64,000 bases of DNA. It comes from an uncultured Actinomycetes bacterium. Lineage in GTDB: Bacteria > Actinomycetota > Thermoleophilia > UBA2241. The notes under the pieces were generated by a model that did not search any database, was not told where the DNA came from, and saw only the letters and a list, made by a program, of their open reading frames with translations. The stretch lies in contig CAVYCN010000007.1 of the NCBI GenBank assembly GCA_963767005.1, forward strand, positions 64,001 to 128,000. Reading direction: 5' to 3'. Every line of letters starts with the position of its first letter. Positions within the stretch are counted from its first letter, which is position 1. Positions 5,495 through 47,387 of the stretch are shown here, piece after piece. The translations under genes and the position numbers were made by a program.

Positions 5495-6211
5495 ATGAAC
5501 ACGGTCGTCGTCCCCACGTACAACGAGCGCGACAACCTGCGTCACGCCCTCGAGCGCATCCGCGAGGTCTCCGAGGGCGCCGGCCTGCCGCTCCACACGC
5601 TGATCGTCGACGACAACTCGCCCGACGGGACGGGCGAGCTCGCCGACCAGCTCGCCGGCGAGTACCCCGACGTCGAGGTGCTGCACCGCGCCGGCAAGGA
5701 GGGGCTCGGCAAGGCCTACATCGCCGGCTTCCGCCACGCCATGGCGACCGGCGCCGACCTGCTCTTCGAGATGGATGCCGACCTGTCGCACGACGCGAGC
5801 TACCTGCCCCACTTCGTGCGCCTGGTCGAGCAGGGCGCCGACGTCGTACTCGGCTCGCGCTACGTCAAAGGCGGCGGCGTCGAGAACTGGCCGCTGTCGC
5901 GCAAGCTGATCAGCCGCGGCGGCTGCATGTACGCGCAGGTCGTGCTCGGCCTGCCCTACCGCGACCTGACCGGCGGCTTCAAGTGCTTTCGCCGCAGCGT
6001 GCTCGAGGCGATCGACCTCGACGCGATCGACACGCGCGGCTACGGCTTTCAGGTCGAGATGACCTACCGCGCCCACAAGCTCGGCTTCAAGGTCGTCGAG
6101 CTGCCCATCATCTTCGTCGACCGCAAGGTGGGCGAATCGAAGATGTCGGGCGACATCTTCCTCGAGGCGGCCGTCAACGTCCTGCGGCTGCGCCTCGACC
6201 GCAGCATCTGA
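5495..6211 (+). CDS. Polyprenol monophosphomannose synthase (GT2, Ppm1/DPM1-like)
   Basis: VVPTYNE, IVDDNSPDGTG, GLGKAY, EMDADLSH, DLTGGFKCFR and GYGFQVE motifs. Confidence 0.92.
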   Translation: MNTVVVPTYNERDNLRHALERIREVSEGAGLPLHTLIVDDNSPDGTGELADQLAGEYPDVEVLHRAGKEGLGKAYIAGFRHAMATGADLLFEMDADLSHDASYLPHFVRLVEQGADVVLGSRYVKGGGVENWPLSRKLISRGGCMYAQVVLGLPYRDLTGGFKCFRRSVLEAIDLDAIDTRGYGFQVEMTYRAHKLGFKVVELPIIFVDRKVGESKMSGDIFLEAAVNVLRLRLDRSI

Positions 6212-38666: not shown

Positions 38667-40331
38667 CTACGGCTGCTGGCGCTCGACGATGGCCTGCAGG
38701 ACCTCGAGCTCGTCGCGGTCGAACCAGTACAGGTCGCAGGGGCTGCAGTAGTCGATCTCGACGGCGTAGTCGTAACTGTACAGGCGGCGCATCATGGGCC
38801 GGCCGCAGCGCGGACAGGCGATCGTCTCGCCGCCGCCCGCCGCACGCCGGGCGCGGTCGGCGCGGCGCAGGTGGTCGCCGTTCTGGATGACGGCCGTCGC
38901 CTCCTGGAGCTGGCCCTGGTCGAACCGCATCTCGCGGCGCGCCAGAACGCGCTGCACCTGCGAGCTGCCGGCCAGCCGGCCGCCGCAGCCCCGGCAGATG
39001 AGCACGTCGGCGCCTTCGTAGTCGAAACGCTCCAGCCCGGTGCCGCAGCGCGGGCAGCGGCCCACGCCGCCGCCCCCGTCCCGGCCCGCCGGCGACTGTC
39101 CGGCGCCCGGTGCTGTGATCGGCGCCTGCGCGGCGGGCGGCGCCTGCGCGGCGGGCGGCGCCTGCGGCGCCGACGCCGGTGCGCTCTGCACGGGCGCGGC
39201 CGCGAGCGTCGTCGTCACGAGCTGGGCGAGCCGGTCCTGGGCGGCCATCGGAGGTGGCGGCTCGGGAGCGGCCGTCGCGTGTTCCTGCTGGGCGGCGGCG
39301 GTTTCGGCCGCCGCCATCTGGGCGTTGAACTGGTCCCAGCCGACGTGCGCGGCGTTCAGCAGACGAGTGATGCGGTCGTTGATGGGCGGATGCGTGGCCA
39401 TGGCGCGCGCGAAGAAGCCGTTCGGCGTGAGCTCGGTCGGCCTGATGCACAGCGCCGACAGACCGTCGGGCATGTAGCCGCCGCCACTCTGGTAGCCCAC
39501 CATCATCTGCAGCGCCTGAGCGAGGCTGAGCGGATCGCGTGTGTAGCGCGCGGCGGCGGCGTCGGCCTCCCACTCGCGCTGCCGCGAGATAGCCGCGTTG
39601 GTGACGGCCGACGCCGCCTCGGCGAGCCGCACGAGCAGGTAGAGAAGGATGGACGCGGCGCTCACCCGTACGTCGCTTTCGAAACCGCCCTCGAGCGTGT
39701 CGGCTACGCCACTGTAGATGCCGAACAGCAGGCAGGCGCTCGTGGCGGTCACGTAGTCGCCCGACAGCACGTGGCCGAACTCGTGGGCGACGACGCCCTG
39801 GAGCTGCTCGCGCGACAGACGCGACAGGGCGCCCTCGGTCACGCCGATGCAGGCGCCGCCCTTCAGGTCGCTGAACGTGAACGCGTTCATCGCCCGCGTC
39901 GGCACGGTGAGACAGGTCACGGCCGGGGAGCCGGTCGCCAGGCGCATCTCCTCGACGATATCGGACAACCGCTGGTGGAAGCGGTCGCCCGGGTCGAGCG
40001 CCTGCGCGTGCATCATGCGGATCAGCCGTTCGCGGGCGCTGCGCCGCGAGAAGTACCAGTACGCGACGGCGAGCAGCAGCGCGATCAGCACCACGAGCCC
40101 GATCGACGCGACGAGCGAGCCGACGGTCGGCGCGACGCCGGCGGCGGTGCTCGTGCTCATGCCGTCGGTGCGCAGCAGCCAGACCACACCGCCGAGCACG
40201 ACGGCGAGCGGCGCGATGCAGAGGAGCACGATGGCGGCCAGGAGCCCGAAGAGCGCCCACACGCGCCAGCGCGCCTCGCGCTCCACCTGGAAGATCGACT
40301 TCGTCGTCCGCGCCCTGGGCGTCTCTGCCAC
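38667..40331 (-). CDS. M48/HtpX zinc metalloprotease with two C-terminal zf-TFIIB-like zinc ribbons
   Basis: NAF, HEFGH, SRQREWEAD and THPP, followed by CPRC..CRGC and CPRC..CSPC. Confidence 0.85.
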   Translation of the reverse strand: MAETPRARTTKSIFQVEREARWRVWALFGLLAAIVLLCIAPLAVVLGGVVWLLRTDGMSTSTAAGVAPTVGSLVASIGLVVLIALLLAVAYWYFSRRSARERLIRMMHAQALDPGDRFHQRLSDIVEEMRLATGSPAVTCLTVPTRAMNAFTFSDLKGGACIGVTEGALSRLSREQLQGVVAHEFGHVLSGDYVTATSACLLFGIYSGVADTLEGGFESDVRVSAASILLYLLVRLAEAASAVTNAAISRQREWEADAAAARYTRDPLSLAQALQMMVGYQSGGGYMPDGLSALCIRPTELTPNGFFARAMATHPPINDRITRLLNAAHVGWDQFNAQMAAAETAAAQQEHATAAPEPPPPMAAQDRLAQLVTTTLAAAPVQSAPASAPQAPPAAQAPPAAQAPITAPGAGQSPAGRDGGGGVGRCPRCGTGLERFDYEGADVLICRGCGGRLAGSSQVQRVLARREMRFDQGQLQEATAVIQNGDHLRRADRARRAAGGGETIACPRCGRPMMRRLYSYDYAVEIDYCSPCDLYWFDRDELEVLQAIVERQQP

Positions 40332-42474: not shown

Positions 42475-42724
42475 GGGTAGACGGCGAGCAGGATCGAGCA
42501 CGCGCACGGTCCGGGCTCCCGCCTCGTACGCCGGTGGTCGGGCGGCGGGGGTGAGGGCGAGGGCGAACTTCGAGCCGGACCCGGCGCGGCGTAGCCGAGC
42601 CGGTCCCCGCAGCGAACCGCGAGCCCGAGCCCTCACCCCCGCCGCAGCCGCAGGCGCGCCAAGACGAGAGGAGGGTCTTCGCGGACCGCCCGCACGCGGC
42701 GCAGATCCCTGCTCGCCGCTACCC
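42475..42724. repeat. ~250-nt imperfect foldback with GGGTAG-led terminal inverted repeats
   Basis: Paired segments 42475-95/42704-24, 42507-13/42682-88 and a perfect 17-bp 42542-58/42629-45; apex CGGCGTAGCCG. Confidence 0.65.
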
Positions 42725-43387
42725 GAGCGCCTTCACTACCTCGGCGACGAACCCGTCCTCGGGCAGGGCGCCCACGAAGCTGTGCTCCCCGTCGATCACG
42801 ACCTTGGGCACGGCCAGCACCTCGTGACGCGCCGCCAGCTCGGGGAAGTCGCTCGCCACGATCACGTCCGCGGTCACCCGCGCGCTCACCATGGCCAGGT
42901 GATGGGCCGTCCGCGCCGCGGACGGACAGTGTGGTCAGGTCGGGGTGACGAAGACCCGCAGATGGACGTCGCGCGGCAGGGCCTCGAGCACGGCGTGCGT
43001 CTCGGGCGAGAGCTCGTCGCGCCCGGCGGCGACGTCGATGACGTCGCCGAGCAGGCTGGCGAACTCGTAGCCCGAGGGCAGCCCGAACAGGCGCACGGCG
43101 CCGCGCGCGCCGGGTCCGCGGACGACGACGGCCGGCACCATGTCGATGCCGTGCCGCTCGGCGAGCTCGCGCTCGGCGTCGACGTCGTGCACCTCGAGCG
43201 CCAGGTGATCGCTCGTCGCACAGAGCTCGCGCAGCAGCGCTTCAGTCTCGGAGCAGCTCGGGCAGGCCTCGCCGGCCGCGGCATCGGCGGACCGCCGCGT
43301 GAAGTGCACGAGCGTGACGTCGGCGGTGAGCTCGGTCGCGAGAATCTCGCGCAGTCGGGCGGTCTCGTCATCTGAAAGCAGCGCCAT
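42719..43387 (-). CDS. Protein disulfide oxidoreductase (two thioredoxin folds, AhpF-N/PDO-like); predicted selenoprotein with Sec at UGA 42937-42935
   Basis: First site CPSC, then G.PSGYEF, then VFVTPT-UGA-PHC. The frame continues 71 more codons (FPELAARHEVLAVPKVVID..FVGALPE) to TAG at 42721. Confidence 0.85.
42907..42925 (-). promoter_or_regulatory. Bacterial SECIS-like hairpin
   Basis: CCGUCCGC-GGC-GCGGACGG begins 9 nt after the in-frame UGA, with a G-led apical loop. Confidence 0.65.
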
Positions 43388-43441
43388 GGTCCCTCCCGCG
43401 CGTGGTCCGGCAGCCGCTGCCGGCCTCTCTTGCCGCAGAGC

Positions 43442-45223: not shown

Positions 45224-45344
45224 TCGCCCGCTGATCGTCGACCCCGGTCCTCGGCCCCTCGAGCCGGCAACGGCTCAAGCCGACCTGCCCTTTGTGCCGA
45301 TGCATGTCGGCGGAAAGCAGCGACGTCCCGGGCTGGAGCGACTC

Positions 45345-47387
45345 GTGGCCAAAGCAAAGAAACGCCTCGTCGTGATCGACGACGACATCCAACTGCGCGA
45401 GGAGCTCGCCGAGTCCTTCGCCGACGCCTTCCAGGTCGACACCTACGAGGGCGGCGCGGCCGCCCTGCGGGCCCTGCGCGAGGCGCCCCCCGACGCCCTG
45501 CTGCTCGACATCGAGCTCGCGGCCATCAAGGGCTTCGACGTCCTGCGCCTCATGACCTCGACCCCCGAACTGCGCTCGGCGCCGGTCGTCGTGCTGTCGG
45601 CGGTGACCGACTTCGAGACCTTCGAGCAGGCCCACCGGCTCGGCATCGCCGACTACGTCACCAAGCCCTTCCGCGTCGAGGACCTGCGCGACAAGATCGA
45701 GCGCGCCATCGACCGGCGCCACAGGCGCAGCGCCGGGCGCCTCAAGCTCGGCGCGCTGCTGGTCGAGAGCGGCATCGTCACCCAGGGCCAGATCGACGAA
45801 GCCCTCGAGCGCCAGCAGCAGGGCGGCGGGCGCCTCGGCGAGGTGCTCGTCGCCTCGGGCCTGGTGTCCGAGGACGACCTCATCCAGGCCCTCGCCGGCC
45901 AGATGCACTTAGACGTCGTCGACCTGCGTGCCGTCGTCCCCAATCCGGCCGCCGTCGGCCTGCTGCCGCGCGACTTCATCGTGCGCCACCGGCTCATGCC
46001 GCTGCGCCTCGACCAGGCGGGCAGCCTCGTGATCGCCATGACCAACCCGCTCGACGTGGTCGTGATCGACGAGGTCCGGCTGCGCACCAAGCGCCGCGTC
46101 GTGCCGGTCATCTGCGGTGAGAGCGCCTTCGACGAGGCCCTCTCGATCTTCACGAACAAGCGCGGCAAGCTCAAGGAGCTCGACGGCGCCGAGCCCGAGT
46201 CGCGCCCCGACCTGCCCGGCGCCCAGGACGCCTCGATCATCGAGATCGTCGACGCGGTGCTGACCGACGCGATCGGCATGAAGGCCTCCGACATCCACGT
46301 CGAGCCGCGCGAGGACGTGCTGCAGATCCGCTGCCGGGTCGACGGCGTGCTGCACGACCTGCGCGAGTACTCGGTCGAGCTGCAGGCCGGCGTCATCAGC
46401 CGCCTCAAGATCATGGCCAACATGGACATCGCCGAGCGCCGCCTGCCCCAGGACGGACGCACCAGCTTCGAGACCGGCGACGGCGACCTCGTCGACATGC
46501 GTCTCGCGTCGATCCCCAGCCTGTACGGCGAGAGCATCACGATCCGCATCCTCGAGGTCTCACCGCTGCCCCCCACGCTGGTCTCGCTCGGCCTCGCCGG
46601 CTCGAGCCTGGAGCACTTCGAGGCGGCCATCAGGCGGCCCGACGGCGGCATCGTGATCTGCGGCCCGACCGGCAGCGGCAAGTCGACCACGCTCTACACC
46701 ACGCTCGAGCTCATCAAGTCGCCCGAGCGCAAGATCTACACGGTCGAGGACCCGATCGAGCGCAAGCTGCACGGCGTGGTGCAGACCGAGGTCAAGCCGA
46801 TCATCGGCCTCACGTTCGCCCAGGCGCTGCGCTCGCTGGTGCGCGCCGACCCCGACGTCATCATGGTCGGTGAGGTGCGCGACCTGGAGACCGCCAAGAT
46901 GGCGGCCGACGCGGCCATCACCGGCCACCTCGTGTTCACCACGCTGCACACCGGCGACGCCATCTCGTCGGTCAGCCGCCTGATCGAGATGGGCCTGCCG
47001 CCCTACCTGGTCGCGGCCGCCTACCGCTGCATCGTGTCGCAGCGCCTCGTCCGCCGCCTCTGCCGCCACTGCCGGCGGCCCGAGGTCATGACCGCCGAAC
47101 GCTGGACCGAGCTCGGCCTGGGCGCCCCGCCGGCACGGCGGATCGACCTGTACGCGCCGGTGGGCTGCCCCAAATGCTTCGGTACAGGCTACTTCGGGCG
47201 ACTCGGCCTGTATGAGGTGCTCACGATCGACGACGACCTGCGCGAGATGATCGCGACCGCCGCGACCGTCGGCGAGATGCGCGCCGCGGCCCGCAAGCGC
47301 GGCGTCGAGAGCATCCACGACGACGGCGTGCGCAAGGTGCTCGACGGCTCTACGAGCTATCTCGAGCTCGTGCGCGTCACGGCGTAG
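45345..47387 (+). CDS. Receiver domain + MshEN + PilB/GspE secretion ATPase fusion
   Basis: REC (VIDDD, LLDIEL, YVTKPF); tandem (K/R)LG..LV..G motifs; ASDIHVEP, GPTGSGKST, DPDVIMVGEVRD and CRHC/CPKC. Confidence 0.9.
   Translation: MAKAKKRLVVIDDDIQLREELAESFADAFQVDTYEGGAAALRALREAPPDALLLDIELAAIKGFDVLRLMTSTPELRSAPVVVLSAVTDFETFEQAHRLGIADYVTKPFRVEDLRDKIERAIDRRHRRSAGRLKLGALLVESGIVTQGQIDEALERQQQGGGRLGEVLVASGLVSEDDLIQALAGQMHLDVVDLRAVVPNPAAVGLLPRDFIVRHRLMPLRLDQAGSLVIAMTNPLDVVVIDEVRLRTKRRVVPVICGESAFDEALSIFTNKRGKLKELDGAEPESRPDLPGAQDASIIEIVDAVLTDAIGMKASDIHVEPREDVLQIRCRVDGVLHDLREYSVELQAGVISRLKIMANMDIAERRLPQDGRTSFETGDGDLVDMRLASIPSLYGESITIRILEVSPLPPTLVSLGLAGSSLEHFEAAIRRPDGGIVICGPTGSGKSTTLYTTLELIKSPERKIYTVEDPIERKLHGVVQTEVKPIIGLTFAQALRSLVRADPDVIMVGEVRDLETAKMAADAAITGHLVFTTLHTGDAISSVSRLIEMGLPPYLVAAAYRCIVSQRLVRRLCRHCRRPEVMTAERWTELGLGAPPARRIDLYAPVGCPKCFGTGYFGRLGLYEVLTIDDDLREMIATAATVGEMRAAARKRGVESIHDDGVRKVLDGSTSYLELVRVTA

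What the first reader, a model, noticed from the sequence alone, without database searches (positions are those of the whole stretch)
42719..43387. Hidden selenoprotein: disulfide oxidoreductase with CxxC and UxxC sites
Seen: the ORF track stops at 150 aa, but the UGA sits exactly at the first Cys position of the second thioredoxin motif (TPT-U-PHC). The frame then completes the fold (cis-Pro AVP, FVGA), and an 8-bp hairpin with a G-led loop follows 9 nt after the UGA. Known: bacterial Sec is encoded by UGA plus an adjacent SECIS and needs SelA/B/C/D; Sec use is uncommon in Actinomycetota. Inference: a 222-aa selenoenzyme that pipelines will truncate.
Basis: partly seen in the sequence, partly recalled or inferred. 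Interest (0 to 1): 0.7.

Follow-up and report, generated by a model that had tools for sequence, protein, structure and literature searches.

The report
Selenium-containing protein disulfide oxidoreductase
An apparent stop codon in the active site of this bacterial redox gene is very likely read as selenocysteine, giving a full-length enzyme of a family already predicted to use selenium, and close relatives likely switched back to ordinary cysteine several times.

Summary
Observation confirmed. Window 43387-42719 (minus strand) reads through TGA at codon 151 to a 222-aa protein disulfide oxidoreductase (TIGR02187 'PDO_seleno_TRX', 217.8 bits, cut-off 185) with CPSC and UPHC sites. The genome has selD (itself with a TGA), selA, selB and tRNA-Sec. 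An 8-bp hairpin follows the TGA and meets the published bacterial SECIS rules. Of 26 ortholog rows, 9 have TGA (8 with this hairpin) and 17 have Cys (none with a stem of 7 bp or more). Codons 154-160 show no synonymous change among 7 TGA orthologs. The public collection holds only the 150-aa truncation. The family is already listed as a predicted UxxC selenoprotein (PMC13188914, PMC9312934, PMC1794560), so this is a new member of a known kind. Sec use is not rare in this lineage (selA in 34 of 36 family genomes). Sec incorporation and partners are inferred, not shown. One extra: Sec and Cys forms are interleaved at one locus in Sec-decoding genomes, which points to repeated Sec-to-Cys reversion, described as rare for this enzyme class.

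The parts
42719..43387 (-). Gene for a 222-aa two-thioredoxin-fold protein disulfide oxidoreductase (TIGR02187), read through TGA; ends at TAG
   Evidence: model pLDDT 95.3, TM 0.91 to PDB 1a8l
43392..43396 (-). GGAGG Shine-Dalgarno-like motif, 4 nt before the ATG
   Evidence: sequence; alignment to 1a8l starts at residue 1 of both; function inferred
43253..43264 (-). N-terminal redox site CPSC (residues 42-45)
   Evidence: C42 and C45 conserved in 90% or more of 92 aligned rows
42935..42937 (-). In-frame TGA, codon 151, predicted selenocysteine
   Evidence: TGA or TGC/TGT at this codon in orthologs
42926..42937 (-). C-terminal redox site UPHC (residues 151-154)
   Evidence: precedes helix 154-167 in the model
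42907..42925 (-). Predicted SECIS: 8-bp stem with GGC loop (loop at 42917-42915), inside codons 155-161
   Evidence: criteria from PMC13188914
42806..42814 (-). AVP motif (Pro194), the thioredoxin-fold proline loop of the second unit
   Evidence: V193 and P194 invariant in A1; cis geometry recalled, not measured
42767..42778 (-). FVGA motif (204-207) of the second unit
   Evidence: G206 invariant, A207 nearly so

Best explanation
The gene very likely encodes a 222-residue selenoenzyme: its UGA 151 is predicted to be read as selenocysteine with the help of the hairpin behind it, and the product is predicted to work as a thiol-disulfide oxidoreductase whose selenium-bearing C-terminal site likely passes electrons from thioredoxin reductase to oxidised proteins. 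Shown: the frame, the two motifs, the family score, the fold match, the Sec genes in the genome, and the tie between TGA and hairpin across orthologs. Inferred from the bacterial Sec pathway (PMC9312934): SelB with Sec-tRNA binds the hairpin and inserts Sec, in competition with release factor 2. Inferred from archaeal PDOs (PMC7465337, PMC7278568): NADPH feeds TrxB, TrxB reduces the U151-C154 site, U151 attacks target disulfides and C154 resolves; both sites together would give isomerase activity. The likeliest reductant is the canonical TrxB on C8; likely clients include the genome's peroxiredoxins. Confidence is about 0.95 for Sec decoding, about 0.85 for thiol-disulfide reductase activity and about 0.5 for TrxB and peroxiredoxins as the partners.
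For: Machinery: selD C4:372008-372922 (351 bits, one TGA), selA C4:373081-374421 (530.7), selB C4:374505-375689 (320.5), all over cut-off and adjacent; tRNA-Sec with TCA anticodon, C4:389248-389341. Three other TGA-bearing genes of known Sec families in the genome (SelD, FdhA, a peroxiredoxin), each with a G-led hairpin of 6-8 bp whose loop is 16-19 nt after the TGA. Orthologs: 9 of 26 rows have TGA at 151, 17 have TGC/TGT, no other codon; the frame after TGA is stop-free in all 9 as far as aligned. 8 of 9 TGA rows have the same 8-bp stem, with changes only in the loop or G-C to G-U; 0 of 17 Cys rows reach 7 bp. pS of codons 154-160 is 0 among 7 TGA rows (rank 1 of 207 windows, median 0.41) and 0.444 among 16 Cys rows (rank 119 of 207); pN after the hairpin (0.240) equals pN before the TGA (0.248). 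selA found in 8 of the 9 TGA genomes. In a phylum sample, 11 of 14 family matches have TGA, all at codon 151. The read-through protein passes the family cut-off (217.8 against 185); the 150-aa piece does not (118.5). In G044 a TrxR-like flavoprotein is fused to the same domain.
Against: No protein-level or labelling evidence. Folding energy of the region is not unusual. G021 has the TGA and hairpin but no selA or selB match (51% complete; its gene is also split over two frames). Two TGA rows depart from the pattern: G038 has only a 6-bp different stem and lacks the first CxxC, and G248 has no stem of 4 bp or more under my rule. The genome is put at 4.87% contamination and the Sec genes lie on another contig (C4) than the gene (C7). 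No reductase or peroxiredoxin lies next to the gene: the conserved neighbours are accC, a CinA-like gene and a glutamine amidotransferase, so the partners rest on analogy. pN/pS values are uncorrected and pS is near saturation in this 71% GC DNA, so only the before/after comparison counts. Orthologs are kin, not independent samples.
Confidence: 0.9

Rival explanations
1. The TGA is a nonsense mutation or a sequencing or assembly error in a Cys codon; the gene is a pseudogene or a plain Cys PDO.
For: TGC/TGT to TGA is one base change; 17 of 26 ortholog rows have Cys, including 4 of the same genus.
Against: The same TGA stands in 8 other genomes of the 26-row set at 35-83% identity and in 9 more from three other families. 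The downstream frame is intact and as conserved as the upstream part, and synonymous sites are frozen exactly over the hairpin.
Confidence: 0.01
2. The TGA is a true stop; the working product is the 150-aa protein with one CxxC, and the tail is not translated.
For: TGA is the commonest stop here (866 of 1449 long ORFs) and RF2 is present. 14 of the best 120 database hits end at VTPT. Some truncated product is expected whenever selenium is short.
Against: The cut falls after the first strand of the second fold unit. The tail keeps its protein conservation. The database truncations are what gene callers do at a TGA and are not independent evidence.
Confidence: 0.03
3. UGA is read as another residue, such as Trp by genome-wide reassignment (reported for one Actinomycetota family, PMC13462651, abstract start only) or Cys by suppression.
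For: The reassignment exists in the phylum by that paper's abstract.
Against: TGA ends 866 of 1449 long ORFs; only 57 of 1751 gene-like TGAs are followed by coding-like sequence; prfB is intact; the only TCA-anticodon tRNA among 50 is tRNA-Sec and tRNA-Trp has CCA. The column is an invariant catalytic Cys.
Confidence: 0.01
4. It is a selenoprotein but serves a different circuit: a free-standing AhpF N-terminal module that shuttles electrons from the glutaredoxin-TrxR fusion (C4:270483-271670) to the AhpC-like peroxiredoxin, or mainly an isomerase or chaperone.
For: Homology to AhpF N-terminal domains; the genome has an AhpF-like flavoprotein with a glutaredoxin in place of this domain and four AhpC/TSA-family genes.
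Against: The fusion does not track the gene: genus g6 has PDO in 10 of 13 genomes and the fusion in 0 of 13; genus g10 has PDO in 1 of 54 and the fusion in 41 of 54 (single-protein query at E 1e-90, kin not independent). Both CxxC/UxxC sites are kept, as in PDO.
Confidence: 0.15

Closest known systems
[quoted passage not shown]
   Same: Same NCBIfam model over cut-off, UxxC motif, one Sec.
   Different: Host lineage and SECIS sequence; here Sec and Cys orthologs are interleaved at one locus. I did not fetch ABB15282.1, so that its Sec sits in the same (second) site was not checked.
Protein disulfide oxidoreductases of Pyrococcus furiosus (PDB 1a8l), P. horikoshii (1j08), Aquifex aeolicus (2ayt) and Saccharolobus solfataricus (SsPDO)
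   Same: Full-length sequence match (E 4e-38 to 1a8l), same fold (TM 0.91, rmsd 1.9), two CxxC-type sites. The site carrying Sec is the C-terminal one, described as the main thiol-transferase site of SsPDO (PMC7465337, passage).
   Different: Those have Cys at both sites. PMC7465337 calls PDOs exclusive to thermophiles; the growth temperature of this host is not known to me.
AhpF and AhpF-like reductases (TIGR03140, TIGR03143; PDB 1zyn, 1hyu, 6il7)
   Same: The N-terminal domain has the same double thioredoxin fold (TM 0.76-0.82).
   Different: No flavoprotein domain here; scores far below the cut-offs (56.7 of 502.9; 76.7 of 687.65); no ahpC beside the gene.

Membership tests
TIGR02187 protein disulfide oxidoreductase | HMM score over the curated cut-off, full length | tested here: met
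   217.8 bits against 185, profile 2-209 of 209
TIGR02187 protein disulfide oxidoreductase | Two thioredoxin fold units in one chain | tested here: met
   AlphaFold2 model pLDDT 95.3, pTM 0.91, made with Cys at 151; TM 0.91 to 1a8l
TIGR02187 protein disulfide oxidoreductase | A CxxC-type site in each unit | tested here: met
   CPSC 42-45 and (U)PHC 151-154
TIGR02187 protein disulfide oxidoreductase | Disulfide reductase, oxidase or isomerase activity; reduction by thioredoxin reductase | not testable with these tools
   Inferred from PMC7465337 and PMC7278568 passages
Bacterial selenoprotein gene | In-frame UGA aligned to a conserved Cys, with conserved sequence on both sides | tested here: met
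Bacterial selenoprotein gene | selA, selB, selC, selD in the genome | tested here: met
   on contig C4
Bacterial selenoprotein gene | SECIS consensus: 3-9 nt loop, 4-16 bp stem, G in the first two loop positions, 16-37 nt spacing, energy at most -7.5 kcal/mol | tested here: met
   3 nt, 8 bp, GGC, 17 nt, -14.0 against the rules in PMC13188914; bSECISearch itself was not run
Bacterial selenoprotein gene | Selenium in the protein; SelB-dependent read-through | not testable with these tools
   Needs labelling, mass spectrometry or a reporter
AhpF / AhpF homolog (TIGR03140, TIGR03143) | Fused TrxR-type flavoprotein domain and score over cut-off | tested here: not met
   222 aa, no FAD domain; 56.7 of 502.9 and 76.7 of 687.65 bits

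The most novel reading that the evidence does not exclude
Sec entered this PDO once at or below the base of the host's family and was then lost back to Cys at least five separate times, in genomes that still decode Sec and keep a TGA in their peroxiredoxin. That would make this a thiol oxidoreductase family with recurrent Sec-to-Cys reversion, against the stated trend that bacterial reversions are rare and mostly limited to FdhA and SelD, and would give matched Sec/Cys ortholog pairs at one locus for testing what Sec is worth.
Probability: 0.6. Interest if true: 0.45.

Novelty: new member of a known kind. Interest (0 to 1): 0.27.

Why it matters
For annotation: the public collection holds this protein only as a 150-aa fragment, and 14 of the best 120 hits are cut at the same residue, so the catalytic half of these enzymes is missing from protein databases. 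For selenium biology: the family is listed only among predicted selenoproteins (PMC13188914), and my searches turned up no experimental study of a Sec-containing member. Congeners at 64-68% identity differ in Sec versus Cys at one locus, a ready-made comparison. The hairpin is sharply bounded by frozen synonymous sites, which makes it a clean SECIS to test. None of this is a new kind of system.

Tried and rejected
Folding energy as evidence for the SECIS: not significant in four windows; dropped in favour of position-specific controls. The search for related loci on genome contigs returned one locus only; the genome search supplied the orthologs. Sequencing runs: no RNA holder listed; no run held half of the words. 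In the four runs laid one 151-nt contig piece is identical over the TGA but has only 11 letters on one side, so it does not count as bridging; a relative's piece (45 other letters in 283) spans it with no listed difference in TGA or stem, but 16 rows of that table were not shown; not used as evidence, and no habitat is claimed. Glutaredoxin-TrxR fusion as dedicated partner: does not co-occur. TGT at codon 151 of Cys rows as a trace of TGA: 7 of 17 rows, but TGT also occurs at the first site in several of these genomes, so rejected. Two de novo screens for further selenoproteins (144 and 164 candidates) gave by eye only SelD, FdhA, a peroxiredoxin and this gene; the second screen missed FdhA, so the list is a lower bound. 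Promoter and terminator scan: nothing at the gene. Earlier findings of the scan: two look-ups, nothing. A paper search on 'Thermoleophilia' rested on my guess at the class, which no call gave; its four listings were unrelated. No complex prediction was run. Rows left out of the 26-row ortholog set: three weak hits at E 3.5e-4 or worse (L041-L043) and a second hit on the G021 locus (L044). Left out of the rooted tree: G044, G038, G109 (long branches), G021 (partial), the second G081 copy, and columns 32-40 and 151-161. G139 gave no row.

Full report
Observation. On the minus strand the ORF finder stops at 150 aa (42935-43387). Translating on, the TGA at 42937-42935 is followed by 71 sense codons and TAG at 42721-42719. 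The read-through protein has CPSC at 42-45, UPHC at 151-154, AVP at 192-194 and FVGA at 204-207. A GGAGG motif lies 4 nt before the ATG. The hairpin is as described: an 8-bp stem starting 9 nt after the TGA, with a GGC loop 17 nt after it, -14.0 kcal/mol alone. The wider region folds no better than shuffles (z -0.78 to +0.61). A stem of 8 or more Watson-Crick pairs with a G-led loop at that distance follows 38 of 1749 other gene-like TGA stops and 60 of 20000 synonymous recodings of the peptide; with G-U pairs and 6 bp allowed the rates rise to 229 of 1749 and 777 of 20000. The rule was fixed after seeing the hairpin.

Identity. With Cys standing in for Sec the protein scores 217.8 bits on TIGR02187 (NCBIfam name PDO_seleno_TRX, cut-off 185); the 150-aa piece scores 118.5. 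It aligns end to end with Pyrococcus PDO (E 4e-38). The AlphaFold2 model from a 92-row alignment has pLDDT 95.3 and matches PDOs of Aquifex and Pyrococcus best (TM 0.87-0.91), then AhpF N-terminal domains. Positions 151 and 154 are invariant Cys in all 91 full-length homologues aligned. The closest ortholog among named genome records (L045, 83% identity) is titled an uncultured Actinomycetes bacterium; no call gave the class.

Sec machinery. G000 (100% complete, 4.87% contamination) has adjacent selD, selA and selB on C4, each over its cut-off, and tRNA-Sec with a TCA anticodon about 13 kb further on. SelD, FdhA and one of four AhpC/TSA-family genes also carry an in-frame TGA, each followed by a 6-8 bp G-led hairpin of different sequence at 16-19 nt. 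TGA is otherwise a normal stop: 866 of 1449 long ORFs end in it, prfB is intact and tRNA-Trp reads CCA.

Orthologs. A search of 61 genomes found matches in 24; a family-wide search found 23 of 89. After leaving out three weak hits and one duplicate, 26 rows remain: 9 with TGA at codon 151 and 17 with TGC or TGT. Eight of the 9 TGA rows have the same 8-bp stem; G015 and G022 change the loop to GGU and G022 turns one G-C into G-U. G038, from another family, has a different 6-bp stem and lacks the first CxxC. None of the 17 Cys rows reaches 7 bp. Among 7 full-length TGA rows of the family, codons 154-160 have no synonymous difference, the lowest of 207 windows (median 0.41); among 16 Cys rows the same window is ordinary (0.444, rank 119). 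Amino-acid divergence after the hairpin (pN 0.240) equals that before the TGA (0.248), and no stop interrupts the tail (uncorrected values). selA was found in 8 of the 9 TGA genomes; the exception, G021, is 51% complete, has no selB match either, and its gene is split over two frames. In a phylum sample of 301 genomes, 14 match the family and 11 of these have TGA, all at codon 151; G248 among them has no hairpin under my rule. selA is in 34 of 36 same-family genomes and in 202 of 301 of the phylum sample. That sample is drawn evenly over the group, not by species count. Four of its genomes (G113, G157, G195, G224) are flagged unpublished; they count in the 202 of 301 (198 of 297 without them) and in the denominator of the 14 of 301, and in nothing else.

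Truncation. The exact 150-aa piece is in the protein collection and the Cys read-through form is not (a record bearing U would not be found by this look-up). Of the best 120 of 2791 hits, 14 including the window's own end at VTPT.

Context and mechanism. The gene follows accC on the same strand after 54 nt and faces a CinA-like gene; this arrangement recurs in 16 of 18 loci compared, Sec or Cys alike, so the rows are positional orthologs. No reductase or peroxiredoxin is adjacent. The genome has a canonical trxB beside trxA on C8, a glutaredoxin-TrxR fusion on C4 and four AhpC/TSA-family genes. The fusion does not track PDO across genera. In G044 a TrxR-like domain is fused to PDO. In S. solfataricus, NADPH and thioredoxin reductase reduce PDO, PDO regenerates Bcp peroxiredoxins, the C-terminal site carries the thiol-transferase activity and both sites are needed for isomerase activity (PMC7465337, PMC7278568; passages seen). 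I therefore infer NADPH to TrxB to U151/C154 to target disulfides, with Sec as the attacking residue. That the first residue of the motif is the nucleophile is established thioredoxin-fold knowledge, recalled. The partners are untested.

What is known. [quoted passage not shown] PMC1794560 counts two Sec members with two Cys-to-Sec events and no Sec-to-Cys event for the family (table passages, section 10 and further passages). The hairpin meets all four SECIS rules quoted in PMC13188914. Searches for an experimental study of a Sec-PDO found none (listings only; subscription journals are mostly outside the library, and I read no supplements, where genome-level lists could already include these organisms). 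PMC5029168 (passages) gave no figure for Sec use in Actinobacteria in the text I saw.

Direction of change. On a rooted tree of 21 family rows and 10 outside homologues, with the SECIS columns removed, genera g1 and g6 each hold both states. The AU test rejects one clade for the 7 TGA rows (p 1.8e-6) and for the 14 Cys rows (p 1.7e-34) (LG+G4). Plain parsimony needs 4 changes, which with a Cys outgroup reads as four gains; this is the result against reversion. But the four Sec lineages share 19-21 of 21 bases over codons 154-160, whereas Sec-PDOs of four other families share only 10-14 and use other stems; the exact codon string has a product of genome codon frequencies near 1e-4. The identity stops at the hairpin's edges: codons 149, 152, 153 and 162 vary, which fits selection on an inherited element better than a recent patch transfer. 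Close Cys homologues keep the peptide that the hairpin encodes (SAART in 7 of 10 at 60% identity or more, 0 of 81 below), though relatedness alone could give part of that. One gain would then need at least five losses on this tree (G009; G005/G003/G002; G014; G081; one or two in g6). Fourteen of the 15 family genomes with Cys-PDO have a peroxiredoxin match with a TGA, as do all 83 matches listed (TGA position not checked row by row), so they still appear to use Sec. PMC13188914 and PMC1794560 describe Sec-to-Cys changes as rare and mostly in FdhA and SelD. I put repeated reversion at 0.6; old recombination of the TGA-hairpin segment or repeated gains on a nearly ready sequence remain open.

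Verdict. Sec decoding is about 0.95 likely on sequence evidence. It is a new member of a family already catalogued as a predicted selenoprotein; the added value is the matched Sec/Cys orthologs and a well-bounded SECIS. Interest 0.27.

Noticed in passing
G000:C12:109536-109898 (-), L092: Peroxiredoxin with TGGU (TxxU) motif and a 7-bp hairpin at the same 9-nt offset; all 83 matches in 80 of 89 family genomes carry one TGA, in contrast to the Sec/Cys mix of the PDO.
   Followed up: partly
window 42926 (third base of codon 154): The resolving Cys is TGT in all 9 TGA rows and 2 of 17 Cys rows, although TGT is 9.5% of Cys codons in this genome. The U sits just 5' of the stem and is unpaired in several folds; it may be a SelB contact like the bulged U of the E. 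coli fdhF SECIS (recalled). Sec-PDOs of other families mostly have TGC.
   Followed up: partly
L088:1219-2406 (G000:C4:270483-271670): Glutaredoxin (CPYC) fused to an AhpF-like TrxR domain; found in 57 of 89 family genomes, none of 13 in genus g6 with this query.
   Followed up: partly
L083:5118-6680 (G044): 520-aa TrxR-like flavoprotein fused to a Cys PDO, directly after NiFe-hydrogenase large subunit and cytochrome b genes.
   Followed up: partly
L082 near 5991-6203 / L039 (G038): TGA-bearing PDO homologue that lacks the N-terminal CxxC, so only the UxxC site remains.
   Followed up: no
L098, L100-L105 (family f32): All 7 matches from this family have TGA at codon 151 with a shared 5-bp stem and GUU loop 22 nt after the TGA, a different SECIS sequence.
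   Followed up: partly
window 45294-47387 (+): PilB/GspE-type ATPase with an N-terminal response-regulator receiver domain and a c-di-GMP-binding MshEN motif; conserved beside the locus in 16 genomes.
   Followed up: no
window 38667-40331 (-): HtpX-like M48 protease with two C-terminal zinc-ribbon domains.
   Followed up: no
window 43403-43419: GC-rich inverted repeat without a U-tract in the 54-nt gap between accC and the PDO start (sequence); not called by the terminator scan.
   Followed up: no
G000 contigs C6/C17, C6/C15 and C15/C19: Identical candidate or family hits appear on pairs of contigs, which suggests duplicated stretches in the assembly and may account for part of the 4.87% contamination figure.
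   Followed up: no
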